A stretch of 64,000 bases of DNA from a virus. Each line of letters starts with the position of its first letter. Within the stretch, counting starts at the first letter, position 1. The DNA lies in the IMG/VR virus record IMGVR_UViG_3300045988_084534, positions 37,276 to 101,275 of that record; one strand, written 5' to 3'. Positions 435 to 50,215 of this stretch are shown piece by piece. A program made the translations under genes and the position numbers. The notes below the pieces were generated by a model. That model did not search any database, had not been told where the DNA came from, and was given only the letters and a program-made list of their open reading frames with translations.

Positions 435-758
435 TAACAAAATGGGGTTCTATAAACAAGTCTAATTGCGGGAACACCCTTAGAGCCTTATCAACCAAGT
501 TTTAATAGGAATATTAAGATGGCGAGGTTAGTGACCGAGGTATGGTAAAATTGATAAGGATTGGGCAACCAGACGCAACCAAGCGTCCAGAACGGACGAA
601 GGCTCATCGACCATCCCTTAATATGGGAGTAGGAGAAAGTGCTAGTCTCCGAAATGGCTTGACTTGCATAAGCAAGTATGATATGGTCAGTTCTCATATG
701 AAAATATGAGCGGTAGATGTCTACGACTAAGATTTAGCACATCTTAGTGAACATAAAG
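435..758 (+). mobile_element. Group I intron (T4 td-like, IA2-type core), no ORF
   Basis: P1: exon GAGCCU(429-434) pairs with intron GGGUUC(445-450), with U.G at the splice site. The intron ends in G758. The core AUCGACCAUCCCUUAAUAUGGGAGUAGG...GAUAUGGUCAG resembles td AACGACUAUCCC..GGGAGUAGG...GAUAUAGUCUG, with a compensatory P7 change (GACCA/UGGUC). Splicing keeps the frame. Confidence 0.8.
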
Positions 759-3700
759 CGAAGCCCGCGAACAATCCATCAAAGCAGAATTTGAGGATTT
801 TGCAAATCGCGTATTATCCAAAGAAGTAGTAGCAGGATTTTATGATGCTACTGAAGCGGCATTACAATTTATTAACACAGATTTTGGTGCAGCCACCACG
901 AGAATCATAGGCACAACAACGGCTATTACAAGTCTGGTTGGTATTCTTGGCACAATGGGCGCAAAATTGGTGCTTGTTGGTAAACAGCTACAGGCGGCTG
1001 GTGCGGCTAATGGCGTTCTTGGATTCCTTACTACGCCTAAGACACTGCTTATTATAGCTGGCGTGGTAGCCGCTATTGCTGGCTTAGTTGAGGTTATTAA
1101 GTCGGTTGAAAAAGCTCAATATGAGGCAAATCATGCTTTTGAGATAGCAAATCAAAAATTATCTGAGACACAAAACGAAATTAAGTCTACTGAGGAAAAT
1201 TTACAAAGTTATAAAAATTCTCTTAAAGAACTTAATGATGTGGCTGAAAAAGATAGAGGTCTTGCTTGGCAACAAGAACGTGCTGAAATTGAATTAAATA
1301 TTCAAAGTACAGAGACATACTTAAAGCTGTTAGAGCAAAAAGCCAAGTTAGAAGCGCAAACGGCGTATGAATCTAAGTTGCCAACTGGTTATACACTTGC
1401 AGGCAACCTAAACGAAAATAAATATAAGACCGAAGATTATTTTGGCGACTATTTTGCACCTGGCAATTCCCAAGTACAGTTGTCTATGGAGCAAGCTGGT
1501 GTTATAACGGCTGTGTATGACAGCGAATACGAGGCATTATCTAACATCGTTTTAGCACTTGCAAATGCTACAGATGAGCGCTATAGATACATCGAGGCAG
1601 AAGATTTAGCTCAACTTGAAGGCAAATCAACTGAAGAACAAATTCAGATTATGACTGATTTGTTAGGTAATTTGGGAATCAAGTTGTCCGCTACCACTGA
1701 AACGGCTACGCAATCTTTTGCCGCAATGGATAATCTTGCCAATAAATCTGGAGAACTTTCAACTAAAGAGAAAGATTTGGCGCAACGATACTTAGACCTG
1801 TATCGAAATATTGTTATCCTTGGTGTGGCAACCGATGAACAAACAAACAGCTATATTCAACTATTGGCTAGAATGTCTGCATTTGACTTGGAGACGGCTA
1901 GCACAACAGAAAAGATTAGTTGGTTAGCAAATGCTTTTGGTATAACAGCTAGTGAATCTGCAAATCTATTATATGCAACTGGTCAATTATCTCTGATTCA
2001 GGCTCAAGCTGCACGCGACATGGTACAACTTTCTAACGGTATGTGGGCTGCTAAATCTGCGTGTAAACAACTTGACGATGGGACATGGGAATTAAAAGAA
2101 AATTTAGACGAAACCGACGATTCAGCAGAAGACTTGTCCGATTCTCTCAATGCCTATCAAAAATCCATCAAGCAAGTAACCGATGATGAAAAAGCATTTG
2201 TCAATTCGCTATTTGATATGAATGGCAATTTGACCAAAGCGGCTCAACAAGCTCTTACCGCTGATAGTGCTATGGCGAGTTATGCACAGAAAATCCTAGA
2301 GGCTCAACAAGCACAAACGCAGTCTGATTATTCTAATTTAATACTTCAAATTGGTAAGGTTGGAGAAGCAGCTTACGTTAGTAGTAATAGATTACAGTCT
2401 TTGATTGCTAGCATTCCGGGCGTTACTTCTAGTACATGGTCTGCTGAAAATCAGGAATCTGTGATGCGCCGATTGTTTAACAAGCAAACGGGCAAGAACT
2501 GGAAACAAGACGCGGCAGCATATAGTGAATGGTCATCGAATTATTTGTTAAATTTGAGCCAAAAAAAATATGAAGAACGCTTAAAAGAGCTACAAAATCA
2601 AGCAAATGCTATATCTTCATTTGTTCCATCTACAGGTGGCGGAGGTGGCTCATCTTCTACAACATCTCAAAAATCCCCGGCTCAAATTGCGGCAGAAGCG
2701 GCAACGAAAGCGGCTAAGTATAGACTAGATGCCTTACAAGATGAGCTTGATGCGCTCAACGATGAAAAATCGGCACTAGAAGATGAAATTCAGCGAATCC
2801 AAGATGAGGTCAAGGCTGAATATCAGGCTGAGATTGATATTCTCAACGATAAGAAAGAGGCTATCCAAGAGGCATATGAGGCATGGGAAGAAGATGCTGA
2901 TGCTGTACTTGATAGACTCAAAGCAGAAAAGGACGCTATTCAAGCAGTCATTGACGCTATTGACAAAGAGAAAGAACAACTTGAAGCGGCGACCGCCTAT
3001 GCTACTGAATATGCCTCTAGGCAGATTGATGAAATTGACGCGCGGCTAGATGAGCTAGATGCCCGTGAAGCCGAAATCAATAAAAAATATGATGACGAGC
3101 TAGACAAGCTAAAAGCGACCAATAAAGAGCTGGACAAGCAAATTGAGCGCGAGAAGCTGCTACAAAATCTAGCATCTGCTAAAAATAAGAAAAAGCGGGT
3201 ATATTCGGCGCAACAGGGTTATATCCTAGTTGATGATATTGCCGCAATTTCTAAAGCACAGGCAGAGCTTGATAAATTTGACCGTCAGCAAAAACAATCT
3301 CTTGAGAAACAGGAGATTGAAAATAAACGCAAACAAGAGCTGTTAGCATCTGGTGTCGAGGCTGAACGCGCGGCATTAGAAGAGCAGAAAAAGCTCTGGG
3401 AAGAATATAGTAAAAAATGGTCTAGTATTGTTTCTGACTATGAGTTCAAGCAAAATAGACTAGCTTATATTCAGCGATATGGTAAGGCTATTGAGCAACA
3501 GAACTGGCAACAGCGCAATAGAACGGTTGACCAAGCTACCAAAGAATACGCTGATATTATGGCGCGGCTATTGGCTGAACAAGAGCGGATGGCGGCTAAA
3601 GAGGCTGAAATTGCGGCTCAAGAGGCGGCAATGGACGAAGCCAGAATTGCCAATCAGAAAGCAACTGCCGCTATTGAAAAGCAAATCAGCGACCTACAAG

Positions 3701-4377
3701 ATGAAATGGTGGCGGCTCAAGAAGCCAGAACTCGCAAGCAAGTAGAATCTCTAAATGCACTGGCTGATGCTATCGAGGACGCTCAAAGGCGTGTTAATCA
3801 AGCGCAGAAAGATTATGACTCCGCACAAGAAGATGAGGGCGCATATGATGTAGATAAGCCGCGTGTTCTAAAGCAAGTGGGCGGCAAAGCTCCCGATGAT
3901 GCCAAGGTAGGCGATTATATTGCTACGGCAGATGGCATTTATCATATTACTGGCGGATACGCTGGACATTGGAAGAGTAGACGAGTGAGCGGTACTGAGG
4001 GGCGTTCCGACTTAAATAATGCGAGAGCAGCGGCTAATTGGCTAGTTAAAAATGGCTATTTGACCGCTGGCGAATTTGGCTATAGGAGCGGAACAACATC
4101 TGCCACACCGGGCTTACATATGCTCGGTGAAAATGGCCCAGAGCTAGGCGTGTTAAGTCGCGGCGATGGGGTCATCCCAGCCGATATAACCAGAAACCTG
4201 ATGAACATAGGCAAGAATCCAGAGAAATTTGCAAATGCCGCTGTTGCCAGAAATGGCGGCGATATTATCATGCAAGGCGTTACTTTGGCATTCCCCAATG
4301 TGCGTGATGGCAGTGATGCCGCAACATTCACTAAGAATTTTGTCAACTTGGCGCATCAATATGCCTATAAGCGATAA
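759..4377 (+). CDS. Tail tape measure protein, exon 2
   Basis: Open frame from 757. It has a TM-like segment, a long coiled-coil region and the C-terminal motif GLHMLGENGPELGVLSRGDGVIPA typical of TMPs. This is the largest ORF in the tail module. Confidence 0.9.
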
Positions 4378-4384
4378 ATTGAAT

Positions 4385-4412
4385 AAGAGGGGTTGGGCAT
4401 CCCGCCCCTCTT
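4385..4412 (+). terminator. Hairpin after the tape measure gene (weak or partial terminator)
   Basis: AAGAGGGG(4385-4392)...CCCCTCTT(4405-4412), followed by an AT-rich stretch but no clean U-run. Confidence 0.35.
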
Positions 4413-4440
4413 ATATATTAAAACAAGGAGGCAATGATAT

Positions 4441-9147: not shown

Positions 9148-10023
9148 ATGTTAATGAATGTTCGCCCATCTTATCCAGAATTAGAGTATATCAATATTAT
9201 TGACATCACGCCAGAAGATAGAACATTTACAAGTGATATAGGTATAAGAAGCGTAAGTACATGGGGGCCTCTATATTATGAGGGTGAAGCATATCCACAA
9301 AAAGATACAGCGACATATTATCCGAGCGGACACACACCTCCGGGATATATAAGGTATGGTTTCAGAAATTTTACTGTTCATCCAATATCACAAGCCGAAT
9401 TAACTGTTGCTGGCACTGAATCAGAGCAGACATTTCAGCCAAGCAACAATGATGCTTTCTTATATAACAAAGTGACCGTTACTCCAAATCTATTACAGTC
9501 AAAACCACCAGTTACGCCATCTGCGACATCTCAACCTGTTACACCAGATAGTGGATATTATGCGTTGAATAGTGTTACCGTTAAGGGCTTGCCACTTGAA
9601 ACAAAGAATGTTCCAAGCATTACGCAAAACGACCAAGTTTTTACGCCATCTAGCGGATATTATGGCTTTAAGCAAATCAATGTTCCAGCTAGTACCACAT
9701 TGAAGATGTTGACCGTTACGCGCAATAGACCAGATAATATTCCAAATACTGTGGGATTTTCAACGATATATACAATATCTATTTTGACCACTAATAGCAT
9801 GGGATATACAGAGTATCAGAACGGAGTAAATATGATAACGGGCAGTTCTAGTCTAGGTGGTGTGGCAACAATTATTTGGGGTTATGGTGGAGATAGTATG
9901 CTTCAACAAGTGGTCAATTTCAATGAATTGGTAACTGTGACTAGTTCAACTATCAACATAAATATAAGTCAATTTGATCTTCGGTTCTCTGGCGAATATC
10001 AAGTGTTTATAACGGGGGCGTAA
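9148..10023 (+). CDS. Repeat-containing fibre/receptor-binding-like protein, paralog A
   Basis: Tandem units of about 35 aa, e.g. SQPVTPDSGYYALNSVTVKGLPLE and DQVFTPSSGYYGFKQINVP, followed by a unique C-terminal domain. Confidence 0.6.
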   Translation: MLMNVRPSYPELEYINIIDITPEDRTFTSDIGIRSVSTWGPLYYEGEAYPQKDTATYYPSGHTPPGYIRYGFRNFTVHPISQAELTVAGTESEQTFQPSNNDAFLYNKVTVTPNLLQSKPPVTPSATSQPVTPDSGYYALNSVTVKGLPLETKNVPSITQNDQVFTPSSGYYGFKQINVPASTTLKMLTVTRNRPDNIPNTVGFSTIYTISILTTNSMGYTEYQNGVNMITGSSSLGGVATIIWGYGGDSMLQQVVNFNELVTVTSSTININISQFDLRFSGEYQVFITGA

Positions 10024-10025
10024 AT

Positions 10026-10907
10026 ATGATTATTAACAAAAGCCCCAAGGAACTGCTTGGGTTACAAGAGAAAACAATGGAATATGGTGAACATATAACC
10101 CCAGATGCAGGTTATATGGGTTTTAGCAAGGTCACTATCAAAGGAATAACAAAGAGCGACGAATATGTTACGCCGGGAACGACTGAAATCGTGCTAACTA
10201 CGCCAAGTGGCGGCGCAGATACGATTGGCAGTGTGACAGTAAATGGAGTAAAGACGGATACGCTTACTGTATCCCCTAGTCAACAGACACAGGAATTTAC
10301 GCCAACAGCGCCGTCATCAGGATATGATAAGGTGGTTGTTAAAGCTGCTCCAAAATCTATTCTATTTGCCAATCCACAAGAATCCGATGTAACATACACA
10401 AAGAATGTCGGCGATTATGGTATTGGCAGCTTGCTTGTAAAATCTGCGGCGCTACAAGAGAGGACGATATATCCTTCAACATCACCGCAGACCATTAAGC
10501 CGGAATCTGGATATTATGGTATTAGCAAAGTGACTATCAAAGGCGGCACGACCTTAAAAAGCTATGAAAGGATATATCGTGGAGCTGGCGATTATTCTTA
10601 TTGGGATGCTAATGTACCAATAAATGAATTTATAGCAAATCCTACTTGTATTATAGTGTATGCTATCAACGATATGGACGCAGAGGGTGATGTCTATAAT
10701 CTATTTTCATTAACGGCATATCAATCCAATGGACGAATGTATGTAGATGATGGATATATGAGAACAAGGACTGCAAGCATTGCTGATATGTCATATACAA
10801 CGATTGGCAATAATAGGATGGGCTTTAATCTGCCTATATATAATAGTAATGATAGAGCGCTATATAAATCTGGGATGTTTTATTTCATTGGTATTTATGG
10901 TACATAA
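10026..10907 (+). CDS. Repeat-containing fibre/receptor-binding-like protein, paralog B
   Basis: About 5 units, e.g. EHITPDAGYMGFSKVTIKG, QEFTPTAPSSGYDKVVVKAAP and QTIKPESGYYGISKVTIKGG, followed by a unique C-terminus. Confidence 0.6.
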   Translation: MIINKSPKELLGLQEKTMEYGEHITPDAGYMGFSKVTIKGITKSDEYVTPGTTEIVLTTPSGGADTIGSVTVNGVKTDTLTVSPSQQTQEFTPTAPSSGYDKVVVKAAPKSILFANPQESDVTYTKNVGDYGIGSLLVKSAALQERTIYPSTSPQTIKPESGYYGISKVTIKGGTTLKSYERIYRGAGDYSYWDANVPINEFIANPTCIIVYAINDMDAEGDVYNLFSLTAYQSNGRMYVDDGYMRTRTASIADMSYTTIGNNRMGFNLPIYNSNDRALYKSGMFYFIGIYGT

Positions 10908-10928: not shown

Positions 10929-11137
10929 ATGACAAATATTGAATTGGCAAAAAAGCACGAAGATGTAGCTAAGAAATATAAGACAGTATATATGTGGGGC
11001 TGTTTTGGTCATCCAGTGACCGAGGCGATTATCAGAGAAAAGGCGGCGCAATATCCTAGTTGGTATACAGCGGCAAAGCAGAGAGAACTAAGAAAGCTGG
11101 TCGGCAAGGGATATTTTGCATTTGACTGTGTAAATCT
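10929..11137 (+). CDS. NlpC/P60-type cell-wall peptidase (lysin), exon 1
   Basis: Ends in the ...GKGYFAFDCVNL catalytic-Cys motif. The downstream stop at 11157-11159 lies in the intron. The 5' splice site is at U11137 or alternatively U11131; both keep the frame. Confidence 0.75.
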
Positions 11138-12809
11138 CACTGACTTTAGTGCGCAATAATAGTAATGTTATTGTGTGTTTATTTGAATTGCTGGAAACCC
11201 CTTAGAGACATATCAACCACAACGTAGCTATGAAATATGGGCAAGCGTGATGGTTTGAAAATGATATAGATTGGGCAATCAGCAGCGAAGCTCCGAATAG
11301 GAGAACGTTCAACGACTATCCTGTTAGAGGGAGTACAACGCAAACGATTGGCGTTGGAAGCGGATAAGACCCTATTATATAGGGTGATGATATAGTCTCA
11401 TCTCATATGAAAGTATGAGGAAAATTGTTTGAGTTCACTTATAATACTATAAAAGCAAGGAGGTGGGTATGTGGACAAAAACAGACAACATTACAAGATG
11501 TCATTGCTTAAATGGTGTGAATCGAATAATAGTAATTTGGTTTACGAATGGGATGAAGCAAATGAAATGGCTATGAACGAGATTGGGTCAAGTAGTGGAA
11601 TAAAAGTGAAATGGATATGCTCTAGGTGTGGTTTTCATTTTGAGCAAAGACCTTCAGATAGGGTGAGGGGGCATGGTTGTCCAAAGTGTGCTAGAAAATC
11701 TCATTCAAGCGTCCCCGAAACGATATGTTATTTGGCTATCAAGCAGTATTTTTCAGATGCGATACATGGATATAAAACCGATTGGCTTGGACGTAAAGAA
11801 TTGGACATCTTTATCCCATCTATTAGTGTTGGCATTGAATATGATGGAAATTCTTGGCATAATAAATCCAGAAAACGAACAGATAATGACAAGACGTGGC
11901 TATGCGCCCAGCATAATATCTTGATCTATCGTATAAGAGAAAACGGATGCGAACCAATGGACGACGAGTCAAATAATATTTATTACAAGCCAAGCAAACA
12001 ATACAATGCTCTTAAGTATTCTATTATAGATGTACTAATGAGGCTTGGACATAATAATGTTGCTTTTGATGACTGGGAGTCGCTTATTAATAAGTCTAAA
12101 TGTGAATTTTCCAGTATTGAAAGAAGTAAATCTATTGGTGTAATAAATCCAGAATTTAGTGCAAAATGGGATTACGACAAAAATTATCCTTTAACGCCAT
12201 ATGATATATTGGCTCATTCCAATCATAAAGTATGGTTAAGATGTGATAAAGGACATTTGTATAAAAGAGCGCCAAACTATTCAAATCAAAAAGAATGCCC
12301 CATATGTATAAATAAAATTGTGCTTGAGGGCTATAATGATTTGGCAACAATAAGACCAGATTTGGCGTTGGATTGGAATTATGATAGAAATGGCGAATTA
12401 AAGCCAACGGAAATAACGTTCGGTTCTAATCGACGTATTTGGTGGAAATGCCATGCTTGCGGAAACGAATTTCAATCATCTCCAAATGCTAGAAAAGATA
12501 ATATGGGACATTGTTCAAAATGTGTGTTCACCAATGGCAATGAAACATTATCAAAAAACAAAGCGGTTAATAATAGTCTTGCTGAGTTTTATCCAGAAAT
12601 CGCAAAAGAATGGGATTATAACAATAATGAAAGAACGCCAGACAATGTTGCAAGGATGTCTGGATTGGAAGCGTGGTGGATTTGTTCAAACGGTCATTCT
12701 TGGAAGGCTAGTGTTCATAGTCGAACGCATGATGGGAAAAAGTGTCCATATTGTAAACAAACTCAAACAATAAACTGCTAGGCGTAGTGAACCTAGTTGA
12801 AAGAAAATG
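11138..12809 (+). mobile_element. Group I intron (td-like) carrying a homing-endonuclease ORF near its 3' end
   Basis: The core GUUCAACGACUAUCCUGUUAGAGGGAGUAC...GGAAGCGG...GAUGAUAUAGUCUCAUCUCAUAUGAAAGUAUGAGG matches the td-like cores of the other introns. The 5' block CCCUUAGAGACAUAUCAACC...GAUUGGGCAAUCAG matches the TMP intron. The tail UAGUGAAC...AAAAUG ends in G12809. Candidate P1 is UGUGU/GCGCA and candidate P10 is CUUUA/UAAAG. Confidence 0.75.
11471..12781 (+). CDS. Intron-encoded putative homing endonuclease: PD-(D/E)XK (Vsr/DUF559-like) core plus four treble-clef zinc-ribbon repeats
   Basis: GTG start after AAGGAGGTG. The nuclease core is ELDIFIPSISVGIEYDGNSWHN. There are four repeats of W(D/N)Y(D/N).N....P......S...(V/I)WW.C..GH.(W/F)......R......CP.C. 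Confidence 0.7.
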   Translation: MDKNRQHYKMSLLKWCESNNSNLVYEWDEANEMAMNEIGSSSGIKVKWICSRCGFHFEQRPSDRVRGHGCPKCARKSHSSVPETICYLAIKQYFSDAIHGYKTDWLGRKELDIFIPSISVGIEYDGNSWHNKSRKRTDNDKTWLCAQHNILIYRIRENGCEPMDDESNNIYYKPSKQYNALKYSIIDVLMRLGHNNVAFDDWESLINKSKCEFSSIERSKSIGVINPEFSAKWDYDKNYPLTPYDILAHSNHKVWLRCDKGHLYKRAPNYSNQKECPICINKIVLEGYNDLATIRPDLALDWNYDRNGELKPTEITFGSNRRIWWKCHACGNEFQSSPNARKDNMGHCSKCVFTNGNETLSKNKAVNNSLAEFYPEIAKEWDYNNNERTPDNVARMSGLEAWWICSNGHSWKASVHSRTHDGKKCPYCKQTQTINC

Positions 12810-13290
12810 TAAAGGAATTTTATGGGGCTGGAATGGTAATGCTAGGTCATATACAGGCGGCGCAAGATATGCTAGTAATGGCGTACCAGATGTTAGCGCA
12901 GATGGCATGATTGGCAAATGTAAGAATGTATCAACCACTGGCTGGGATAAGCTGGAAATTGGCGAAGGGCTATGGATGCCCGGACACTGGGGTCTATATA
13001 TTGGCAATGGTCTAGCAGTAGAATGCACGCCTATTTGGAAGAATGGTGTGCAAATCACGGCTGTTGGCAACATTGGTAATAAAGCAGGATATAATAGCCG
13101 CAAATGGACTAAACATGGAAAATTACCATATATTACCTATGTTCAGCCAGAGCCAGATACAGATGATAAGCATGAGGCGAATAAAGCCAAAGTAAAGGCG
13201 CGATTCGGCTTTACAGACAGCACTATTAAATGGCTTGATTCTTATAAATATAATAAAGACATCATGGACAAGCTGGCTAATAAAGGCTAA
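12810..13290 (+). CDS. NlpC/P60-type cell-wall peptidase (lysin), exon 2
   Basis: Continues KGILWGWNGNARSYTGGARYASNGVPD...MPGHWGLYIGNGLAVE (catalytic His region). The exon 1 plus exon 2 length is a multiple of 3. Confidence 0.75.
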
Positions 13291-13301: not shown

Positions 13302-14060
13302 ATGATTATCAATGCAAATCAAGGTGGTGGCGGTAATCTACAAGAAAAGACCGCCACCCCATCTACTGCACAACAGATTATTACCCCAGATAGTCAATAT
13401 GATGGCTTGAGCAAGGTGACTATTGCGCCTACGCCGCTAGAGGAAAAAACCGTAAAATCATCAACAGCGCAACAGACAATCACACCAACATCGCCTAATA
13501 TCGGATTTAGTAGTATTACTGTCGAGCCTAATCTATTACAAACAAAATCTGTGACATTGCCTACTAGCCAGCCGATTCAACCAGATACTGGATATTATGG
13601 ATTATCGGGAGTCAATGTATTAGCGCCACTATATCCATTAAACGTAACACCCACATCAACACAGCAAACATTTAATGTTCCTAGTGGATATTATGGGCAT
13701 GGTACTGTTACTGTTGGAGCAGCACCGCAGAATACGGGTTGGTATAAATATTTAACTCTGACAAACACAACCTCTTTATCTATATCGAATCCGGGAATTG
13801 ATGAAATTCTTATCTGTATGATAATGTCACAAGGAACAAATTTACAATATAACTATATTAAAAGTCTACAAATTGTCGGAGACCAATTCTGGAAGGGAGT
13901 TTCTGGCAGTGGAGAATTTATTAACAGTTCGGATTTTTCTGGTGGTAGTATTTCTATCAATAGTTCAACAATTTCTATTATATTACCACAATATAACGGC
14001 ACACAATTATATTTTAATGACTCATATTGTATAACATTTAGCGGAACTAAGATACCATAA
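13302..14060 (+). CDS. Repeat-containing fibre/receptor-binding-like protein, paralog C
   Basis: Four units (AQQIITPDSQYDGLSKVTIAPTPLE, AQQTITPTSPNIGFSSITVEPN, SQPIQPDTGYYGLSGVNV, QQTFNVPSGYYGHGTVTVG) followed by a unique C-terminus. Confidence 0.6.
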   Translation: MIINANQGGGGNLQEKTATPSTAQQIITPDSQYDGLSKVTIAPTPLEEKTVKSSTAQQTITPTSPNIGFSSITVEPNLLQTKSVTLPTSQPIQPDTGYYGLSGVNVLAPLYPLNVTPTSTQQTFNVPSGYYGHGTVTVGAAPQNTGWYKYLTLTNTTSLSISNPGIDEILICMIMSQGTNLQYNYIKSLQIVGDQFWKGVSGSGEFINSSDFSGGSISINSSTISIILPQYNGTQLYFNDSYCITFSGTKIP

Positions 14061-25509: not shown

Positions 25510-25926
25510 TTATTCACATTTTGTCCAGCCACATGACTTACAAATTTTGCAACCGCCCTCAAACATAACGGGTTCACCGCATTCAGGGCATACCTCTGTT
25601 GAAATTGTGGCTAGTGCATTGCTCAACTTTTTAATGCTGTCTGTTGCTTTATTAGTAGCCTCTCTTAGATTCTTAGTCACATTAACCACATCATCCTCTT
25701 TATCATCTAGTTCACTCTGCATCTCATTATACATATCTACTAGAGCATTACCAATAGCCATAGGACAACAAGACCCCTTACTGGTATCATGGTGAGTTGC
25801 CTTGCGAGTAGCATAAGATGGGCATACACCAGTTGAATCAAGCTGGTCTTTGATGGTCATAATATCCACACCAGCGCGGCATAGTAGACTGACCATGCGG
25901 CTTAGACCTGTCATGAAATTTGCACA
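25510..25926 (-). CDS. nrdJ: Class II (B12-dependent) ribonucleotide reductase, C-extein
   Basis: Starts with the +1 Cys, CANFMTGLSRMVSLLCRAGV. The C-terminal zinc ribbon is CPECG...CKICKSCG. Confidence 0.85.
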   Translation of the reverse strand, partial: CANFMTGLSRMVSLLCRAGVDIMTIKDQLDSTGVCPSYATRKATHHDTSKGSCCPMAIGNALVDMYNEMQSELDDKEDDVVNVTKNLREATNKATDSIKKLSNALATISTEVCPECGEPVMFEGGCKICKSCGWTKCE

Positions 25927-26886
25927 ATTTCCAGTAATAAAGATTTTACCATTACGACGCAACACAAGCAAACCGCTTGGAACTGTAAAACAATAAGATT
26001 TGCCGTCGATTGGTTTATAATCTTCAATAGTTGCAGTTGATAAGCCATGTACGTTTTGGGTTGTCCAACGCACTCTATAACTATCTTGAATATTTTGTGT
26101 TCCGTTGTTCAATGAAATTGTAGCTCTAAAACCAAGCCTTGTCAATGCAAACTGGATAAAATCAGCTTCGTGCTTTTTTGACGTATAATAAGAACCAAGT
26201 CGGTTTCCTTCGCCAACAGAGCCATCCCAATATACACACTCATCCACAATACATTTTAATTGCTCATCATTACAAGCATACCATTTTGGTGTAAATTGCT
26301 TGTCAATAAACCATTGTTTAACACTTGGAATTGGATGAATATAAAACACGGTATATTCGGTATTGTTGATGTTTTTTTCAGTCCATCCAATATCACAATT
26401 TGTTAGTAGTTGACGAATACGAATTTTCTTTCTATCTTTTTTTACGTTAATAACAATTTTATTTCCATCAAATGTACCATCCGCATAAATTGCAACAAGT
26501 AGTCTAATTATCTCATTACTAAGCGGAATACCATTTGTATTCATAGAGAAGGTGGTTGGAATATGACGATTTTTAGAACCAGCCATGAAATCTTTTACAG
26601 TAATAATTTCATGGGTTAATTTGCTTCTAATTCCAGACATATATTTTGCATAATTTTTATACAAATACATTCTATGATCTTCTGAAAGAACCATATCCAA
26701 TCCAGTTGTATTGTGGAAATATTTCATATTCTCAACATTGTCATTAACAACGTAAGAAATTGGATAGGTTAAAGAAGCCGTTCCATCTTCATTGTACTGC
26801 AACACTTGTTCATACTCATCCATATTATATTCGCTAATTTTTTTCCACTCGATACCATTAAAATATTCAGTATCTTTGTCTACGCA
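25927..26886 (-). mobile_element. Intein (320 aa) with LAGLIDADG homing-endonuclease domain inside nrdJ
   Basis: Begins with Cys (CVDKDTEY) directly after extein ...KGSTGG and ends ...LVLRRNGKIFITGN before Cys+1. Has a block B-like SEDH. LAGLIDADG-type motifs are LLVAIYADGTF and ECVYWDGSVG. Removing it restores KGSTGG-CANF. Confidence 0.85.
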
Positions 26887-28034
26887 TCCACCAGTCGAGC
26901 CTTTATTGAAATATACCTCTTGTAGATTGCCGTCAATGGGGTCAAAGAATGCTAGAACATGAAGTGAGCCGCATCCTGTCTGGATTTTGCGCTTTTTGCC
27001 AATCAGGTCATTGCTTGGTTCAATGATTGAGCCGCGAGGTAGAATGGGGGATGTGGATTCAGGCTTGGTTTCATTATCTTTCTTATTGTCAGTAAGCAAG
27101 ATTCCCTGACGGATTGCATTAGGTCTAAAGATTGTACATCCCTTAATGCCTAGCTTCCAGCACTGCATATAGATGTCCTTGACTTCATCAAACGATGCTT
27201 CAGTAGGCACATTGATTGTCTTGCTAACGCTCATGTCGGTATATTTGCTGATAATAGCAAGCATAGCTACATGGTCATCGACAGACATATTAAGCGCAGT
27301 TGGGAAAATATCATGCTCGTCAAAATCAAGTTGCTCACCCTTATCCTTTAGCTTATGATAGAGATAATAAGCATAATCCATCATCTTGACGATTTTTACG
27401 TCCTTATCGTCCTGACCCCCAATTTTTACCTTGCGGTCATAGCTAAGAGAGAAGATTGGCTCAATGCCACTAGAGCAGTTGTTACCAAATACCATAGAGA
27501 TCGTGCCGCACGGTGCAACCGCTTGAATCTTGGCGTTACGAATACCATATTCAGCCATCTCGGCAATGACATCATGTTCTAGCACAGATTTGACATATGT
27601 GTTATCTGCGTGTTTATCTGGCTCACATAGAGGGAAACAGCCCTTTTCTTTAGCAAGCTGAACTGACGCATAATATTCTGCATTAGTAATCATCTGCATT
27701 AGAGATTCAACATAATCTCTTGCTTCCTGACTATCATACTTCATGCCAAGCATAGCCAGCATATCTGCTAAACCAGTAATGCCAATACCAATGGTGCGCA
27801 TACTCTTCTGATAATTTTCGTAAATCTTGTCAGGGAATTTATTTACATCAATAATATCATCAAGCATACGGACTGCAATAGAGATTGTATTTCTTAGAGC
27901 ATCAGTATCAAGATGTGCTTGCTTGGTAAATGGATTCTTTACAAAATTGTGTAGGAACAATGAGCCAAGATTACAAGCACCGCCATATTGCGATGGGTCT
28001 GTTGCATTGATTGTTCCTGCTAGATATTCAGCGC
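26887..28034 (-). CDS. nrdJ: Class II ribonucleotide reductase, exon 2 / N-extein part
   Basis: Spliced junction reads NP-C-AEYLAGTINATDPSQYGGACNLGSLFL. Followed by RTIGIGITGLADML, APCGTIS and SKTINVP. Confidence 0.85.
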
Positions 28035-28204
28035 CTCACACAATGCGTATCAAATACAGTTCGCATCGTGCGCTAGACTATCGCATCCCCTTGGGGTCTC
28101 CTCGCTTAGTCGTTCAGGCTGGCATTACCCTTGCCCCCTGTAGCTGTGTATTCAGCGTCCAAGTCAATCAGAGGAGATTTTACATCCGCACGTTTATATG
28201 GCTA
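28035..28204 (-). mobile_element. Compact (about 170 nt) ORF-less group I intron in nrdJ
   Basis: P1: exon AUCCGU pairs with intron GCGGAU (28184-28189), with U.G at the splice site. P3 is UCUCCUC/GAGGAGA, P7 is GACUA/UAGUC, P8 is the hairpin ACCCCAAGGGGA, and the terminal nt is G. Splicing creates the catalytic NPC codon (ccg u|gc). Confidence 0.8.
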
Positions 28205-29027
28205 ACGGATTACTACAAACAATTCTTTCTACATACCATGCAGGATTGCGATTATTGGCATTATCCTCATAGAATACGCCCGGTTCACCATTATCATATG
28301 CCATCTGCATGATTTCGTTCCAAATATCACGAGCTGGCACTAGCTTGGTAAATTGCTTATCCCACTTATCTGGCGGCAGTTTATTGCCCTTCTCGTCATA
28401 GATAGGCCAATGTAGTTTAACTTGACCATTCTCAATGACAAGATTCATAAAAGCATCATCTACAACAACAGATAGGTTGAAATGATTTAGCCGTCCTTCT
28501 GTAGCTGATTTAGCATGAATAAATTCAAGAATGTCAGGATGATATACACTGAGCATACCCATGTTTGCACCGCGCCTTGAACCTTGCTGCACAGTAGCCG
28601 TCTGAGCATTAAATACATCCATGAAACTAACTGGACCAGATGCAATAGCATCATTACGGGTTCTATAACCATTAGGCGCTAGATTGCTAAAAGCATAACC
28701 AATTCCGCCACCAGCTTTATGTGTCATAGCGCCTAGCTTAACCGCATTAAAAATCTGCTCCATGCTATTACCAATAATAGGTGCTACAAAGCAGTTATTG
28801 AGAGTTAGCTTTTCGCCAATACCGGCATTGCTCATGGTGCGTCCAGCAGGGAAGAAATAGCCTTCTTTCATAATACTGAAGAATCTATCTGCCCATTTAG
28901 GCGCGTTCCAATTTCCTTCGGCGGATGCTACAAAATCAGCTACACGCCATAGCTGGTTATCATATGACTCACCGTCCTTTTGGTATCTATCTTTCCAGAT
29001 AGATTCATATACCTCATTTACAAACAA
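28205..29027 (-). CDS. nrdJ: Class II ribonucleotide reductase, exon 1
   Basis: TTG start after AGGAGG. Motifs GRTMSNAG, LNNCFV, GGGIGYAFSNL, RRGANMG and ...VCSNP. The tracked stop at 28194 lies inside the intron. Confidence 0.85.
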
Positions 29028-34511: not shown

Positions 34512-34544
34512 AATTAAAACAACCTCCTGTTCTTTGATAAATCA

Positions 34545-34573
34545 AGTATATCATAGAATCAGGAGGTTGTCAA
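34545..34573 (-). promoter_or_regulatory. Sigma-70-type promoter (TTGACA-17-TATACT)
   Basis: On the - strand: aTTGACAacctcctgattctatgaTATACT. Confidence 0.65.
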
Positions 34574-34586
34574 TACCCTATTTTAA

Positions 34587-34841
34587 TTATTTTTCAATCA
34601 TTTTCTTTAATTCTGCAAATAGCTCTCTACCGCAAATAGGGCAAGTAGAATCAATGTCAACTACATATTTTTCATCTACCATTAAGCCGCAATTTGGGCA
34701 TTTAATAGGCGCATATTTTAGTGGATGTTCAGTCCGTTTGCGGCGATTTCTTTCTGCTCTGCTCAATTTCTTCCTTCTCCTTATATTTTGCTCTGTATTC
34801 ATTTCGCTTGGTTTCATCACCATCATTCCACCATTTGACAT
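34587..34841 (-). CDS. Basic zinc-ribbon protein (start uncertain; overlaps the upstream gene in another frame)
   Basis: RRRKKLSRAERNRRKR...CPNCG...CPICG. Overlaps the 3' end of 34729..35826 by 74-113 nt, depending on which Met is used. Confidence 0.4.
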   Translation of the reverse strand: MSNGGMMVMKPSEMNTEQNIRRRKKLSRAERNRRKRTEHPLKYAPIKCPNCGLMVDEKYVVDIDSTCPICGRELFAELKKMIEK

Positions 34842-46438: not shown

Positions 46439-46445
46439 AATATTT

Positions 46446-47078: not shown

Positions 47079-47146
47079 AATTCTTTACCTTTCTGAAATT
47101 TAATGAATTTTATTTATATCTTACTCAGCTTTTTTAGCTGTAGTAA

Positions 47147-47779: not shown

Positions 47780-47787
47780 TTACTTAC

Positions 47788-47988
47788 TTAATCCTCCTCT
47801 AATTTTACACAATATTCTGATTCATAAAATATACAATCTTCACAATTAAATGTATTGTAGCAACACTCTTTGCAATTCTTTGGCACATCATATCCCATAT
47901 CACTATACCAATCATATTGACTATCAAGCGCAATCGGGCAATGCCCGGTCACACATTCATTTGCACAGAATCCTTTACATTTCTTCAT
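47788..47988 (-). CDS. Cys-rich small protein
   Basis: 66 aa with 12 Cys residues. Confidence 0.4.
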   Translation of the reverse strand: MKKCKGFCANECVTGHCPIALDSQYDWYSDMGYDVPKNCKECCYNTFNCEDCIFYESEYCVKLEED

Positions 47989-49436
47989 GCTTCTTCCACA
48001 CTTTCATCTCCTGATACGTTTCAGATAATGTCACCCATTCGCCATTTTCGTCTTTTTTCATTTTGTTTTTCTCTTGCAATACTACCCTTGCTACATCACC
48101 CTTTTGTAATTGATGGTTCGTCCAGAATTTCTTACTAGCTCTATATGTGCGTTCTGCCCCATAACAAATATTGTATAGTGTGCAATAAACCGTACCGTAT
48201 CCTGTTGTCTTGACATCTAGCACTAACCAGTCATTAGAGTCTGAATTGGGGTCACTGCAATCTACATATCCTAATAGCTCAATCTGCCATTTCAGCTTAT
48301 CAGCAATAGTTGTCTTAGGCATTTTCATTGAGCGCAGGATTGATAAGATGATGCCGCGATTATCAAGCTGACTAGCTGTTTTCTCTGTTAGCTTACCAGT
48401 ATACGGCGTAAGCATATCTACATTATAACCCATTTTAGCCCATTTGTCAAGTTTAATTGTCTTACATTTTGAAAAATTTTTATATATATCAATGCCAATT
48501 AGCAATGCTTTAGCAGAACCATAGCAATCAAGATAGCCCAACTTAATCAATTTATCAAGTTGCGAATAACCGCATTTTAGATTGGGCAAATCATCAAGTA
48601 AATCGAGGAATGATGGATATGGCTTTTCTTTACCAATCAATTCTATCTCATTCTTGATTTCGTTATCTACACCCTTGATTTCATTCTTAACCTTAGATTG
48701 ACCTCTGCCTGTTAAGAAATCGTTAAGACGCTTATTGGCTTCATCAATATAATATTGCTTATCAAGATAATCTGGTACTTTTACGCCTATGACGTTCTCG
48801 TTATAGATAAAGCATCTATCAGCAGTTCCAGCCATCTTTTCAGGATTGCCACCATCTTTTACCTTGAATACACCAGCATCCGATTCTCTTGTAGATGCAA
48901 ATACGCGTAATACGCGCTCTCTTAAAACCGTGTCGCCGTGCATAGAATGGACATATGAACCGCCTATTTTGACAATCTTCTGAAATTCAATCAGGTCATT
49001 ACAGTTGTTGATTGTATCTTCAATGGGTGTACCTGAGATGAAATAAGAATTGAGGGCTTTGTTAAGAATAGGCAGGTCATAATCAACCTTGCTCAATTTC
49101 TTTACATACGCGCCTTTGCTTTTCGGACCATCCTCTTCAACTAAGATATAGTTATTTACATCCTTTTGCCAGATAGCTGAAGCATAATCAAATTCAAGAG
49201 ATAGCCGCACCCTCTTTTCCCAATCGTGCATGATTTGCTCAACAATCGGTTCATTTGCTTCATCCTCAAAATAGACATATACACCATCTGTGTTAGACTG
49301 AATCAATTTACAGTATGGCTCAATTTTCTCAATCAAGTCAAGCAACAATAGCTGACCTGTTACACAGACACACCGGCACATTCTTGGATCGTATAGTGGA
49401 TTGTGTTCATCACCAGATGCCCCGTAAGTCGAATTT
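47975..49436 (-). CDS. Family B DNA polymerase, exon 2
   Basis: The spliced junction gives motif B KIVL-NSTYGA. Motif C is SNTDGVYV. The frame is open back to 49436. Confidence 0.85.
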
Positions 49437-49542
49437 CCTTAATACCCATGATTTACCATTTACATGAGAGTAGACTATATCATCAAGTTCACCGCTTCCA
49501 TCGTCGTGCCAATAGACGATGTACTCCCGTAAGGGATAGTCG

Positions 49543-50046
49543 TTACACTTTATTCTTATAGTAATCGGCGCATTTTCTTTGGGTTTTATTTTTCTGTTGC
49601 TCTTGAATGGTTATCCACCTGCAATTATCAGGTTCATAATTTCCATCATTGTTTATTCTATCTATGGTTAATCCTTCACGATAACCAGATATTCTTGACC
49701 ACTCGTAGAAATTTTCAAATTTATACCATTCTTTACAAATTGAAATTCCTCTACCGCCATATCTTTGATAATGTTTGTCATTTGGATTATTTACTCTATT
49801 TTTCATAGATGCCCAAACATGATATAGCTTGGTTTTAGATTGATTATGAGTAATAATGGCGTGATCAAATTGCAAGCAACCGCAACTTTTAACAGTTCCA
49901 TTTTTAAGACAATCTGATCTAACTTTACATTTATTACCACATTCGCATACACAGTTCCAGTAACTATGCTTTTTATCCATATGCGAAAAATCTTGTACTG
50001 TCAATCTTCCAAAAACCTGTCCAGAAATATCAATTCGTTTCCCCAA
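49543..50046 (-). CDS. Intron-encoded HNH homing endonuclease
   Basis: C.CECGNKC...SCGC zinc module, YGGRGISICKEW, and HNH tail IDRINNDGNYEPDNCRWITIQEQQKN. Confidence 0.8.
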   Translation of the reverse strand: MGKRIDISGQVFGRLTVQDFSHMDKKHSYWNCVCECGNKCKVRSDCLKNGTVKSCGCLQFDHAIITHNQSKTKLYHVWASMKNRVNNPNDKHYQRYGGRGISICKEWYKFENFYEWSRISGYREGLTIDRINNDGNYEPDNCRWITIQEQQKNKTQRKCADYYKNKV

Positions 50047-50126
50047 AACATTTACACCGACTTTCCAAAAATCTTAGCACGGGATTGCCCTAAAATAGTG
50101 GAGGGTGTTCCCCGTTAGCACTTATT

Positions 50127-50155
50127 ATTATATCACATTTTCAATAAAATGTCAA
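50127..50155 (-). promoter_or_regulatory. Sigma-70-type promoter inside the polB intron, upstream of the HNH ORF
   Basis: On the - strand: aTTGACAttttattgaaaatgtgaTATAAT. Confidence 0.6.
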
Positions 50156-50215
50156 TACTTTTAAGCACACCTTTGGCAAAGTTCAATGAATTTTTTAATT
50201 GACCCCAATTCGTTA

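What the first reader, a model, noticed from the sequence alone, without database searches (positions are those of the whole stretch)
435..50215. Exceptional density of self-splicing elements: four related group I introns, one intein and three homing-type endonucleases, each inserted at a catalytic or conserved motif
The introns interrupt four genes.
- The tape measure gene (435-758).
- The NlpC/P60 lysin (about 11138-12809), cut at FDC(VNL)|KGILW.
- nrdJ (28035-28204), cut at NP|C.
- polB (49437-50215), cut at motif B KIVL|NSTYG.

An intein additionally sits at nrdJ GG|C.

The introns share sequence blocks.
- The lysin and polB introns share AACGACUAUCC..GGGAGUAC...GGAAGCGG...GAUGAUAUAGUCU.
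- The TMP and lysin introns share CCUUAGAG.C.UAUCAACC and GAUUGGGCAA(C/U)CAG.
- The TMP intron has the compensatory P7 variant GACCA/UGGUC.

These shared blocks suggest intragenomic spread of one intron lineage. That lineage has reached a structural gene (the TMP) and a lysis gene, which are unusual targets compared with the classic nucleotide-metabolism genes.
Basis: partly seen in the sequence, partly recalled or inferred. Interest (0 to 1): 0.75.

Follow-up and report, generated by a model that had tools for sequence, protein, structure and literature searches.

The report
Four introns, one intein, gut phage
An uncultured gut phage really does carry four optional self-splicing group I introns and one intein in its tape-measure, lysin, nrdJ and DNA polymerase genes; this is a known kind of parasitism, apart from a 170-base ORF-less nrdJ intron that the standard Rfam model misses.

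Summary
All four intervening sequences and the intein are real, optional insertions. For each one, close relatives (90-100% protein or 92-96% DNA identity) carry an exact empty site, and other relatives carry the same element.

Corrections and limits:
- The lysin intron is 11141-12809, not 11138-12809. Empty alleles read FDCVNL-T-KG.
- NlpC/P60 membership of the lysin is not supported by Pfam.
- The four introns are not one lineage. TMP and lysin are sisters (65% identity over 256 nt). polB shares only the 3' core with the lysin intron. The nrdJ intron belongs to a separate compact family.
- The "shared blocks" are family-wide core motifs found in 75 other viral contigs, and the lysin intron has closer relatives in other phages. 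Spread within this genome is therefore not supported.
- TMP and lysin are already published intron targets, an intron plus an intein in one RNR gene is known from SPbeta, and Bacillus phage AR9 has a gene annotated as six joined pieces.

The new part is the nrdJ intron. It is 170 nt and has no ORF. Rfam RF00028 gives no hit to it at E<=10. It belongs to a family of at least 119 compact introns whose core shows strong covariation (98.7% of cells paired, against 39-49% in slid controls).

Nothing here was tested experimentally.

The parts
1..434 (+). Tape measure gene, 5' exon. The gene runs off the left end of the window.
   Evidence: Pfam PhageMin_Tail matches residues 4-99. The exon ends ...YLESL with U434 paired to G in P1 (GAGCCU/GGGUUC), read from the sequence.
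435..758 (+). TMP group I intron, 324 nt, no ORF. P7 is GACCA/UGGUC. It has P7.1/P7.2 inserts, a P9 hairpin CUCAUAUGAAAAUAUGAG, a P9.1 helix AGAUGU/ACAUCU, and omega-G at 758.
   Evidence: RF00028 scores 40 bits, E 2e-8, full length. It is 66% identical over 285 nt to RF00028-positive introns in the TMP genes of relatives and 73% identical to an intron of Bacillus phage AR9 gene g189. Empty site: P0121. Same intron: P0129.
759..4377 (+). Tape measure gene, 3' exon.
   Evidence: It is in frame with exon 1. The protein alignment across the junction is gapless against the TMPs of Enterocloster phage CB473P1 and Geobacillus phage E3 and against P0121-P0127.
10929..11140 (+). Lysin gene, 5' exon (corrected end).
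   Evidence: Collinear DNA of L397, 96% identical, stops aligning at window 11140. The empty allele reads GTAAATCTCAC-G-AAGGGC. PHROG 3513 'endolysin' matches at 8.5e-14. There is no Pfam hit.
11141..12809 (+). Lysin group I intron, 1669 nt (corrected from 11138). The ribozyme core lies at 11141-11419 and the ORF sits in the 3' peripheral region (P9.1-type position). The 3' tail at 12782-12809 shares UAGUGAAC with the TMP intron. Omega-G is G12809. The proposed P10 is UAAAG (12810-14) with CUUUA (11144-48).
   Evidence: RF00028 scores 93.9 bits at 11122-11419. The P1 hairpin CACUG/UAGUG appears in the MFE fold. The junctions are fixed by P0001, L397, L001 and L002.
11471..12781 (+). Intron-encoded endonuclease ORF, 436 aa, with a GTG start 6 nt after AAGGAGGTG. 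It has an N-terminal nuclease region followed by four treble-clef zinc ribbons.
   Evidence: Pfam DUF4379 matches four times, 3.5e-56. PHROG 559 matches at 7e-29 and PHROG 3339 'homing endonuclease' also matches. PMC11878797 reports that PHROG 559 proteins carry a VSR-type nuclease domain and are encoded in introns.
12810..13290 (+). Lysin gene, 3' exon.
   Evidence: The spliced product is 230 aa, the same length as P0001 and 97% identical to it.
28205..29027 (-). nrdJ (class II ribonucleotide reductase), 5' exon, ending ...CSNP plus the T of the Cys codon.
   Evidence: It aligns to Thermotoga NrdJ 1xjk across the junction, E 7e-80.
28035..28204 (-). Compact group I intron, 170 nt, no ORF and no P2. 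Intron coordinates: P1 is exon AUCCGU with GCGGAU (16-21), and U28205 pairs with G. P3 is 28-34 with 102-108 (7 bp, as in A2). P4 is CUUG/CAGG. P5 is GCUG/CAGC. P6 is GGGC/GCCU plus GG/CC. P7 is GACUA/UAGUC. P8 is CCC/GGG. The core of the P9 stem is 139-143 with 158-162. Omega-G is G28035.
   Evidence: The boundaries are exact against empty alleles L005-L014. The same element, 96.5-98.8% identical, occurs in six other contigs. Family covariation supports P3, P4, P6 and P8. P5 and P9 show compensatory changes against the same-site introns in L394 (179 nt) and L332 (180 nt). There is no RF00028 hit.
25510..28034 (-). nrdJ 3' exon, which includes the intein. The mature NrdJ is 795 aa.
25927..26886 (-). 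Intein, 320 aa, inserted at GSTGG|C. It has Cys1 (CVDKD...), a C-terminal ...ITGN, a +1 Cys (CANF), and LAGLIDADG-like motifs LLVAIYADG and VYWDGSVG.
   Evidence: The joined exteins align in one piece at 91-100% identity in 14 close relatives that lack the intein. L019-L021 carry an intein 88-89% identical at the same site. Pfam LAGLIDADG_3 is weak, at 18.8 bits against a cutoff of 22.5. The protein also matches intein-bearing PHROGs.
50216..51189 (-). Family B DNA polymerase gene, 5' exon, ending ...KIV plus CT.
49437..50215 (-). polB group I intron, 779 nt. P1 is AUUGUCCU/GGGGUCAAU with U50216 paired to G. The P4-P6 region is CGGGGAACACCCU...AGGGCAAUCCCG. The ORF sits between P6 and P7. The 3' part runs P7 ACGACUAU, P7.1, P7.2, GGAAGCGG, then J8/7-P7' GAUGAUAUAGUCU. 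Omega-G is G49437. No normal P8 could be drawn.
   Evidence: Empty-site alleles L033-L035 and L046 are 92-94% identical in DNA. An ORF-less homologue sits at the same site (KIVI|NGTYG) in L258, with a compensatory P1 change: exon C to A and guide G to U. RF00028 matches only the 3' core, at 14.9 bits.
49543..50046 (-). Intron-encoded HNH-type endonuclease ORF, 167 aa. Its stop codon overlaps the 5' strand of P7.
   Evidence: PHROG 374 'HNH endonuclease' matches at 4e-66 and PHROG 2081 at 7.5e-30. PHROG 2081 proteins are encoded in DNA polymerase introns in Bastillevirinae (PMC11878797). There is no Pfam or PDB sequence hit.
47975..49436 (-). polB 3' exon, beginning (L)NSTYGASGDE...
   Evidence: It aligns to Sulfolobus PolB 1s5j across the junction.

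Best explanation
The window is part of an uncultured phage of roughly 85-95 kb from human-gut samples. Four essential or late genes have each been colonised independently by mobile group I introns from at least three structural lineages, and nrdJ has also been colonised by a LAGLIDADG-type intein.

Inferred mechanism, from established group I chemistry:
- In each pre-mRNA, the internal guide sequence near the 5' end of the intron pairs with the last bases of the upstream exon to form P1.
- An external guanosine bound in P7 attacks the 5' splice site.
- The terminal G of the intron then occupies the same pocket, and the freed exon end attacks the 3' splice site. This joins the exons and restores the conserved motif.

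The lysin and polB introns carry their own endonucleases (a VSR-like nuclease with zinc ribbons, and an HNH enzyme). These presumably cut empty alleles during co-infection, so that repair copies the intron in.

The TMP intron (324 nt) and the nrdJ intron (170 nt) have no ORF. They must move by ordinary recombination or by a nuclease supplied in trans, or they persist because precise loss is rare.

The intein is removed after translation through Cys1, the C-terminal Asn and the +1 Cys.

Shown here: the exact boundaries, the optional presence among near-identical phages, the group-I core by covariance model or covariation, and exon bases that fit each intron's guide sequence.

Inferred only: actual splicing, endonuclease activity and the route of mobility.
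For: Boundaries and presence/absence:
- nrdJ.
- polB.
- Lysin.
- TMP.
- Intein.

Ribozyme identity:
- RF00028 scores 93.9 bits for the lysin intron and 40 bits, E 2e-8, for the TMP intron.
- The polB 3' core matches, and there is a same-site ORF-less homologue in L258.
- The nrdJ intron aligns with 91 other distinct copies. RNAalifold recovers P3, P4, P6 and P8, and 17 of 22 pairs show compensatory changes.
- In the pair counts, 98.7% of cells are paired, against 82.4% when shuffled and 39-49% when slid. 402 cells have changes on both sides, against 113.5 expected.

Guide-exon fit:
- nrdJ alleles with the intron have Pro codon CCG, which pairs with GCGGAU. Empty alleles have CCC or CCA.
- The window polB has Val codon GTC, which pairs with the guide GGGG. 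Empty alleles have GTG or GTT.
- L258 shows a compensatory change between exon and guide.

Splice-site rules: U.G at the 5' splice site in TMP, nrdJ and polB, and a terminal G in all four.

Protein continuity across the junctions.

Endonuclease families: and PMC11878797.
Against: - There is no RNA or biochemical evidence. Splicing is inferred.
- Only one of the four introns passes Rfam's gathering score.
- The lysin intron, as delimited by empty alleles plus the terminal-G rule, has C-G rather than U.G at the 5' splice site.
- A normal P8 cannot be drawn for the polB intron.
- The nrdJ intron lacks P2 and is very small, so it may need a protein helper.
- The intein lacks the usual penultimate His (it ends ..GN), and its LAGLIDADG match is below the Pfam cutoff.
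Confidence: 0.85

Rival explanations
1. One reading: one intron lineage has multiplied inside this genome and so reached the TMP, lysin, nrdJ and polB genes.
For: The TMP and lysin introns are clearly sisters. They are 65% identical over 256 nt (E 9e-16), including the P5 extension blocks, the P9 hairpin and the 3' tail UAGUGAAC. The lysin and polB introns share the P7 - P7.1 - P7.2 - GGAAGCGG - J8/7 block.
Against: The nrdJ intron matches none of the other three and belongs to a separate compact family. The polB 5' half does not match the lysin or TMP introns. The lysin intron is 75-77% identical to introns in other phages (L195/L199, L221), which is closer than to its genome-mates. The lysin/polB block occurs exactly in 75 other viral contigs. 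The P4-P6 region of the TMP intron is 73% identical to an intron of Bacillus phage AR9. Relatives carry different introns at the same or neighbouring sites.
Confidence: 0.1
2. Some of the interrupted genes are split genes or pseudogenes and are not spliced. In particular, nrdJ could be made as two polypeptides that assemble, as in Aeromonas phage Aeh1 NrdA or Thermus phage phiYS40 NrdJ, with the 170-nt piece as a dead remnant.
For: Split RNR genes without splicing are documented (PMC3653736). The 170-nt element has no Rfam hit, its MFE z-score is only -1.67, and it carries no ORF.
Against: The break falls inside the Cys codon of NPC-AE. Downstream there is no in-frame ATG or GTG and no ribosome-binding site before a TTG 25 codons in. 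The element keeps every core helix, with compensatory changes both among its own copies (C142-G159 to U.G to U-A) and across 92 family members. Three diverged nrdJ genes carry it at the identical position with the same P1. It keeps U.G at the 5' splice site and a terminal G.
Confidence: 0.07
3. The ORF-less introns (nrdJ, TMP) are real group I introns but no longer splice on their own. On this view they depend on a phage or host protein, or on the ORF-bearing introns' proteins acting as maturases.
For: The nrdJ intron is very small, with no P2, a 3-bp P8 and a 4-bp P4. In Bastillevirinae, four of eight spliced phage introns spliced only in infected cells and not in vitro (PMC11878797 abstract).
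Against: The core is under strong structural selection. From memory and not checked here, engineered sunY derivatives of about 180 nt are catalytically active. No maturase candidate was identified.
Confidence: 0.3

Closest known systems
Group I introns in the tape measure genes of Bacillus cereus-group prophages (TMP-IVS1-3; Tourasse & Kolsto 2008, PMC2504315)
   Same: ORF-less or ORF-bearing group I introns sit at several alternative sites in a TMP gene. Similar introns occur at different sites and different introns at the same site, with patchy distribution among related phages. The window and its relatives show the same pattern.
   Different: The host clade differs (a gut phage, against Bacillus prophages), and no sequence comparison with those introns was made here. 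The site in the window (YLESL|EAR) was not compared with IVS1-3.
Intron plus intein in one ribonucleotide reductase gene of Bacillus phage SPbeta ('lightning strikes twice'; cited in PMC3653736)
   Same: [quoted passage not shown]
   Different: Here the gene is class II nrdJ, not class Ib nrdE. The intron is a 170-nt ORF-less compact type placed inside the thiyl-radical Cys codon.
Phage IA-type introns with P7.1/P7.2, such as the T4 td/nrdB/nrdD introns and those of Twort, SPO1, AR9 and the Bastillevirinae (PMC11878797)
   Same: The lysin, TMP and polB introns have the insert between P7 and P3', ORFs in peripheral loops, and HNH or VSR-like endonucleases of PHROG families 559 and 2081, which are also intron-encoded in Bastillevirinae. 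The TMP intron is 73% identical to an AR9 intron. polB motif B is a target here, and DNA polymerase genes are the commonest target in that paper.
   Different: No subgroup assignment was computed here. The resemblance of the polB P4-P6 region to the T4 nrdD (sunY) intron rests on memory of that sequence. The lysin intron has C-G at the 5' splice site.
The small group I intron in the T-loop of a Clostridium tmRNA gene, and other small bacterial tRNA or tmRNA introns (subgroup labels recalled from memory, not verified)
   Same: The compact family found here includes a 195-nt copy in the T-loop of a tmRNA gene (L284) with the same J3/4-P4, J6/7-P7 and J8/7 sequences as the window's nrdJ intron.
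   Different: The window copy is in a protein-coding phage gene, is 25 nt shorter, and has a single P9 hairpin instead of the additional 3' hairpins seen in most members.
Azoarcus pre-tRNA-Ile intron (about 205 nt), often cited as the small self-splicing group I model (from memory)
   Same: It is a minimal, ORF-less bacterial-type group I ribozyme.
   Different: There is no sequence similarity. The window's intron is about 35 nt shorter and has not been tested for activity.

Membership tests
Group I intron | A conserved catalytic core (P3-P8 with the P7 guanosine pocket) recognised by a covariance model or supported by covariation. | tested here: met
   Lysin: RF00028 at 93.9 bits, above the gathering score of 50. 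TMP: 40 bits, E 2e-8, below the gathering score, but homologous to RF00028-positive introns. nrdJ: no RF00028 hit, but the core helices are supported by covariation in 92 sequences. polB: only partly met, with a 3' core match of 14.9 bits and a P8 that could not be drawn.
Group I intron | A P1 helix between the end of the 5' exon and an internal guide, with a U.G wobble at the 5' splice site. | tested here: inconclusive
   Met for TMP (U434.G), nrdJ (U28205.G) and polB (U50216.G), with exon-guide co-variation. Not met for the lysin intron, where C11140-G11149 is a Watson-Crick pair.
Group I intron | A guanosine as the last intron nucleotide (omega-G). | tested here: met
   G758, G12809, G28035 and G49437. 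For nrdJ and polB, the boundaries are fixed independently by empty alleles.
Group I intron | Precise removal restores an uninterrupted, conserved coding sequence, and intron-less alleles exist. | tested here: met
Group I intron | Guanosine-dependent self-splicing. | not testable with these tools
   This needs in vitro transcription and GTP labelling, or RNA from infected cells.
Intein (HINT domain with nested LAGLIDADG endonuclease) | An in-frame insertion with Cys/Ser at position 1, a C-terminal Asn, and Cys/Ser/Thr at +1. Intein-less alleles are colinear. | tested here: met
   The sequence runs C(VDKD)...(ITG)N|C(ANF). The joined exteins align in one piece at 91-100% identity in 14 close relatives.
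Intein (HINT domain with nested LAGLIDADG endonuclease) | Recognised HINT and LAGLIDADG profile matches, block B TxxH, and a penultimate His. | tested here: inconclusive
   Only LAGLIDADG_3 matches, at 18.8 bits against a cutoff of 22.5. No HINT profile hit was reported. The penultimate residue is Gly. Homology to intein-bearing PHROGs 32482 and 12229 and to the L019-L021 intein.
None of the 120 listed homologues carries a precomputed NlpC/P60 domain; a few have LysM PF01476 or SH3 PF08239 additions. Only PHROG 3513 'endolysin' matches. The fold was not modelled.
HNH homing endonuclease (polB intron ORF) | A profile match to the HNH / His-Me finger family, and a location inside an intron. | tested here: met
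   PHROG 374 at 4e-66, plus PHROGs 3377 and 2081. The ORF lies wholly inside the intron. There is no Pfam or PDB hit, so the catalytic motif itself was not checked.
VSR-like (PD-(D/E)XK) intron endonuclease, PHROG 559 (lysin intron ORF) | A profile match to PHROG 559 and a nuclease motif of the E-x-D-G...H type. | tested here: inconclusive
   PHROG 559 matches at 7e-29 over residues 31-164. The motif GIEYDGNSWH is visible in the sequence. The VSR domain assignment for PHROG 559 is taken from PMC11878797, not computed here.

The most novel reading that the evidence does not exclude
The 170-nt nrdJ element may be a fully self-sufficient group I ribozyme. That would make it smaller than any natural self-splicing group I intron I can recall (Azoarcus is about 205 nt, from memory). 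It would also represent a large, environmentally widespread compact family (at least 119 metagenome loci, in phage genes and a tmRNA gene) that the Rfam group I model does not detect at all. If so, current intron surveys of phage and bacterial genomes would be systematically missing these elements.
Probability: 0.3. Interest if true: 0.6.

Novelty: new member of a known kind. Interest (0 to 1): 0.4.

Why it matters
For annotation: gene callers split all four genes. Database proteins end in intron read-through (P0129) or start after an intron (P0121), so the TMP, lysin, NrdJ and PolB of this phage group are mis-annotated unless the introns are modelled.

For biology: the group offers a natural population series for studying intron and intein gain and loss at single-nucleotide resolution. 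The series has empty sites, the same intron at the same site, and a different intron 2 nt away.

For RNA work: the compact family is a source of minimal group I ribozymes, and it shows a blind spot in RF00028-based screens.

None of this changes the current understanding of how such elements work.

Tried and rejected
- A megablast of the first 14 kb against INPHARED phages found nothing.
- A plain MAFFT alignment of the three ribozymes could not align the nrdJ intron to the others.
- The MFE fold of the nrdJ intron alone is unconvincing, with a z-score of -1.67, because P3 and P7 form a pseudoknot. Comparative analysis was needed.
- A global pairwise identity with shuffles did not discriminate, since shuffled sequences reached about 60%. 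It was replaced by BLAST between the ribozymes.
Both are in frame, but they delete residues that are present, and encoded by the same bases, in the empty alleles at 97% identity.
- A regex scan for further P7 pairs found only the four known cores plus a loose match at 57656-57874 on the plus strand. That match lies opposite the coding strand and has no Rfam support.
- Pfam scans of 20 other large ORFs found no further intein or intron-split gene.
- PDB sequence searches did not identify the nuclease domains of the two intron ORFs.
- Literature searches for the smallest known group I intron and for the tmRNA intron paper returned nothing usable. Those comparisons rest on memory and are marked as such.
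- No custom covariance model was built, because regex, BLAST and RNAalifold already answered the questions.

Full report
WHAT THE WINDOW IS.
The window holds a phage structural and lysis module on the + strand: tape measure, tail proteins and lysin. A replication module lies on the - strand:
- class II ribonucleotide reductase
- RecD-like helicase
- Dam-type methylase
- RecJ-like nuclease
- primase
- DnaB
- family B polymerase
- beta-CASP nuclease
- integrase
- two tRNAs

There is no near-identical record among deposited phages. Many IMG/VR, ENA and Logan contigs of 76-98 kb, mostly from human-gut samples, are 92-99% identical gene by gene.

CHECK OF THE OBSERVATION.
Rfam over the whole window at gathering score finds one group I intron, at 11122-11419 in the lysin gene (93.9 bits). 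Targeted, more permissive searches gave three results:
- a full-length match of 40 bits (E 2e-8) for the TMP insert
- only a 3' core match (14.9 bits, E 0.9) for the polB insert, whose ribozyme is split by a 167-aa ORF
- nothing at all for the 170-nt nrdJ insert

A whole-window search at E<=1 again returned only the lysin intron. By the covariance model alone, then, one intron is certain, one is probable and two are open.

The spliced NrdJ aligns to Thermotoga NrdJ straight through ...SNPCAE... against ...TNPCGE.... The spliced PolB aligns to Sulfolobus PolB through motif B, YKIVLNSTYGASGDEHNPLYDPR against [23 protein letters not shown]. The spliced TMP aligns without a gap to the TMPs of an Enterocloster phage and a Geobacillus phage.

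EMPTY AND OCCUPIED ALLELES.
The strongest evidence comes from relatives.

nrdJ:
- Ten loci (L005-L014) are uninterrupted and read AATCC[C/A]T|G[T/C]GCTGAA.
- Two IMG/VR loci and four metagenome loci carry the same 170 nt at the same position, at 96.5-98.8% identity, while their flanking exons are 85-97% identical.
- Five loci (L017, L019-L022) carry an unrelated insert of about 903 nt with an ORF, placed 2 nt downstream after the full Cys codon. It has its own matching P1 (CCCUGU/GCAGGG).

polB:
- Four relatives, 92-94% identical in DNA, have the empty site ATTGT[G/T]CT|[T/A]AATTC.
- A distant polB (L258) has an ORF-less homologue of the intron at the same place (KIVI|NGTYG). Its exon base -2 and the paired guide base have both changed, C-G to A-U.

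Lysin:
- P0001 is a 230-aa uninterrupted protein, 97% identical, on an 89-kb contig whose DNA is collinear with the window at 96% identity.
- The DNA alignment stops at window 11140 and resumes after 12810.
- The empty site reads GTAAATCTCAC-G-AAGGGC.

TMP:
- P0121 (90% identical) reads ...ENAKYLESLEAREQSLKAEFEDF... without interruption.
- P0129, from a 95-kb contig, ends ...YLESLNKMGFYKQV. This is the same read-through into the same intron as in the window.

Intein:
- The 47+71-residue joined extein query aligns in one piece at 91-100% identity in 14 close relatives.
- Three relatives have an intein 88-89% identical at the same GG|C site.

Every element is therefore an optional insertion with boundaries known to the nucleotide.

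CORRECTION OF THE LYSIN JUNCTION.
Those read FDCVNLTKG in P0001, P0002, P0006 and L002, and FDCVNLIKA in L001. Exon 1 of the window itself continues ...AAT CTC ACT. The insertion therefore lies between C11140 and A12811, with one T that can be assigned to either side.

Because a group I intron ends in G, the intron is 11141-12809. The 5' exon then ends in C11140. In the MFE fold, C11140 pairs with G11149 in a P1 hairpin, CACUG/UAGUG. The next guide bases, CUUUA (11144-48), can pair with the start of exon 2, UAAAG, as P10. A C-G pair in place of the U.G wobble at the cleavage site is unusual, and I flag it as unexplained. cDNA cannot resolve it, because both assignments give the same product.

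THE nrdJ INTRON.
It is 170 nt and has no ORF. By hand it can be drawn with these helices:

| Helix | Sequence or position |
|---|---|
| P1 | exon AUCCGU with GCGGAU; U.G at the splice site |
| P3 | UCUCCUC/GAGGAGA (28-34 with 102-108) |
| P4 | CUUG/CAGG |
| P5 | GCUG/CAGC |
| P6 | GGGC/GCCU plus GG/CC |
| P7 | GACUA/UAGUC |
| P8 | CCC/GGG |
| P9 | a long hairpin that ends 2 nt before the terminal G |

There is no P2. Alone it folds only marginally better than shuffles.

These come from soils, peat, lakes and guts. An alignment of 92 distinct copies gave the following:
- RNAalifold independently predicted P3, P4, P6 and P8, and 17 of 22 pairs show changes on both sides.
- With P7 added as a pseudoknot, 98.7% of cells are paired, against 82.4% after shuffling and 39-49% when partners are slid by 1-3 columns.
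- 402 cells have double changes, against 113.5 expected.
- P4 and P7 are nearly invariant, so they say nothing either way.

Among the window-type copies, the few substitutions preserve pairing. C142-G159 becomes U.G in L018 and U-A in L023; G67A turns U.G into U-A; and C84U turns G-C into G.U.

Two diverged nrdJ genes carry family members of 179 and 180 nt at the identical position, with the same P1 and with compensated P5 and P9 stems. They are L394, reading NP|CGEQP, and L332, reading NP|CAEEP. Alleles with the intron have the Pro codon CCG, which pairs with the guide, while empty alleles have CCC or CCA.

Another family member (195 nt) sits in the T-loop of a tmRNA gene. A further one lies in an unidentified gene of a 40-kb viral contig, with a guide that matches that exon.

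RF00028 reports none of the compact copies, either at gathering score in 18 loci or at E<=10 in 5 short loci.

I conclude that the 170-nt element is a real member of a large compact group-I-type family that the general Rfam model does not see. Whether it splices unaided is untested.

ARE THE FOUR INTRONS ONE LINEAGE?
BLAST between the four ribozymes, with the ORFs removed, gives three results:
- lysin-TMP: 65% over 256 nt (E 9e-16), plus a shared 3' tail
- lysin-polB: 65% over 106 nt, the 3' core only
- nrdJ: nothing significant against any of the other three

The lysin intron is closer to an intron in a relative's TMP gene (77% over 239 nt, L195/L199) and to L221 (75%). Both are RF00028-positive. 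The P4-P6 region of the TMP intron is 69-73% identical to introns of Bacillus phages AR9/PBS1 and of Bastillevirinae.

The window therefore holds at least three lineages: TMP/lysin, polB and the compact nrdJ type. The shared blocks are conserved core, not evidence of copying within this genome.

ENDONUCLEASES.
- The lysin-intron ORF (436 aa) has four DUF4379 treble-clef zinc ribbons. Its N-terminal region matches PHROG 559 and PHROG 3339. PMC11878797 reports PHROG 559 proteins as VSR-domain nucleases encoded in terminase introns.
- The polB-intron ORF (167 aa) matches HNH PHROGs 374 and 2081. PHROG 2081 is intron-encoded in DNA polymerase genes of Bastillevirinae.
- The intein has LAGLIDADG-like motifs, but only a sub-threshold Pfam match.
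- The TMP and nrdJ introns encode nothing.

HOW UNUSUAL IS THIS?
- Group I introns at three sites in prophage TMP genes, in tail-tube and terminase genes, and in Staphylococcus phage lysin genes are described in PMC2504315.
- SPbeta nrdE carries an intron and an intein (PMC3653736).
- A Siophivirus genome has six introns in two genes (PMC11878797).
- AR9 gene g189 is annotated as a join of six pieces.
- In the window's own relatives, one 3-kb TMP stretch has three RF00028 introns.

Four introns plus an intein in 64 kb is high, but it is within the known range, and the targets are not new.

VERDICT.
The interpretation of a single spreading lineage and of novel targets is not supported. The noteworthy residue is the 170-nt ORF-less nrdJ intron and the compact family behind it.

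Noticed in passing
L195:1-2873 (IMGVR_UViG_3300045988_095194), and protein clusters P0121 and P0142-P0160: The TMP gene of relatives carries three RF00028 introns within 3 kb. Database proteins stop at ...GDTLAG or start at MQGRSL. So this phage group uses at least two further TMP insertion sites (query residues about 34 and about 99), both of which are empty in the window.
   Followed up: partly
L017, L019-L022, about 2096-2999: A different intron of about 903 nt, with a LAGLIDADG-looking ORF, occupies nrdJ 2 nt downstream of the window's insertion point, after the complete Cys codon. Its guide GCAGGG matches its own exon CCCUGU.
   Followed up: partly
L284:699-893: A 195-nt member of the compact intron family interrupts the T-loop of a tmRNA gene (GGGUUCGAU|...|UCCCAC). 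Rfam calls the tmRNA but not the intron.
   Followed up: partly
L279:258-481 and about 770-908: One 1.4-kb metagenome contig holds an RF00028-positive intron and, about 300 nt downstream, a compact-family copy that RF00028 does not report.
   Followed up: no
window 33307-36920 (-): Three adjacent genes encode a D12-class adenine methyltransferase, a PAPS-reductase-domain protein and a class V aminotransferase (cysteine-desulfurase-like). This may be a DNA modification module.
   Followed up: no
window 11471-12781 (+), residues 290-430: The DUF4379 zinc-ribbon repeats of the lysin-intron endonuclease match kinetoplastid mitoribosomal protein mS66 chains in the PDB (E 1e-9). No solved structure matched the nuclease domain by sequence.
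   Followed up: no
L399 (Bacillus phage AR9 KU878088.1 149146-155764): The virion RNA polymerase beta-subunit gene g189 is annotated as six joined pieces with an HNH-AP2 endonuclease inside. One of its introns is 73% identical to window 463-583.
   Followed up: partly
L277:about 1250-1460 (-): A compact-family intron lies in an unidentified ORF of a 40.5-kb viral contig (exon ...LDGTNPTSI|). Its P1 guide GUCGAUG matches that exon, and its P5, P8 and P9 are compensated relative to the window copy.
   Followed up: partly
window 9148-10907 and 13302-14060 (+): The ORFs on either side of the lysin gene share a repeated motif (...TP.SGYYG..KVTV...), so the lysin sits between paralogous tail or fibre-like genes.
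   Followed up: no
window 56477-60003 (-): A tyrosine integrase gene sits next to tRNA-Leu(UAA) and tRNA-Ile(UAU) genes, which suggests a temperate or formerly temperate phage.
   Followed up: no
L005:5-634, L007:10-432, L012/L013:1-978: In some relatives, a sequence 33-43% identical to the window's intein lies about 2.4-3.3 kb upstream of the nrdJ junction, in a neighbouring gene. The window has no intein there.
   Followed up: no
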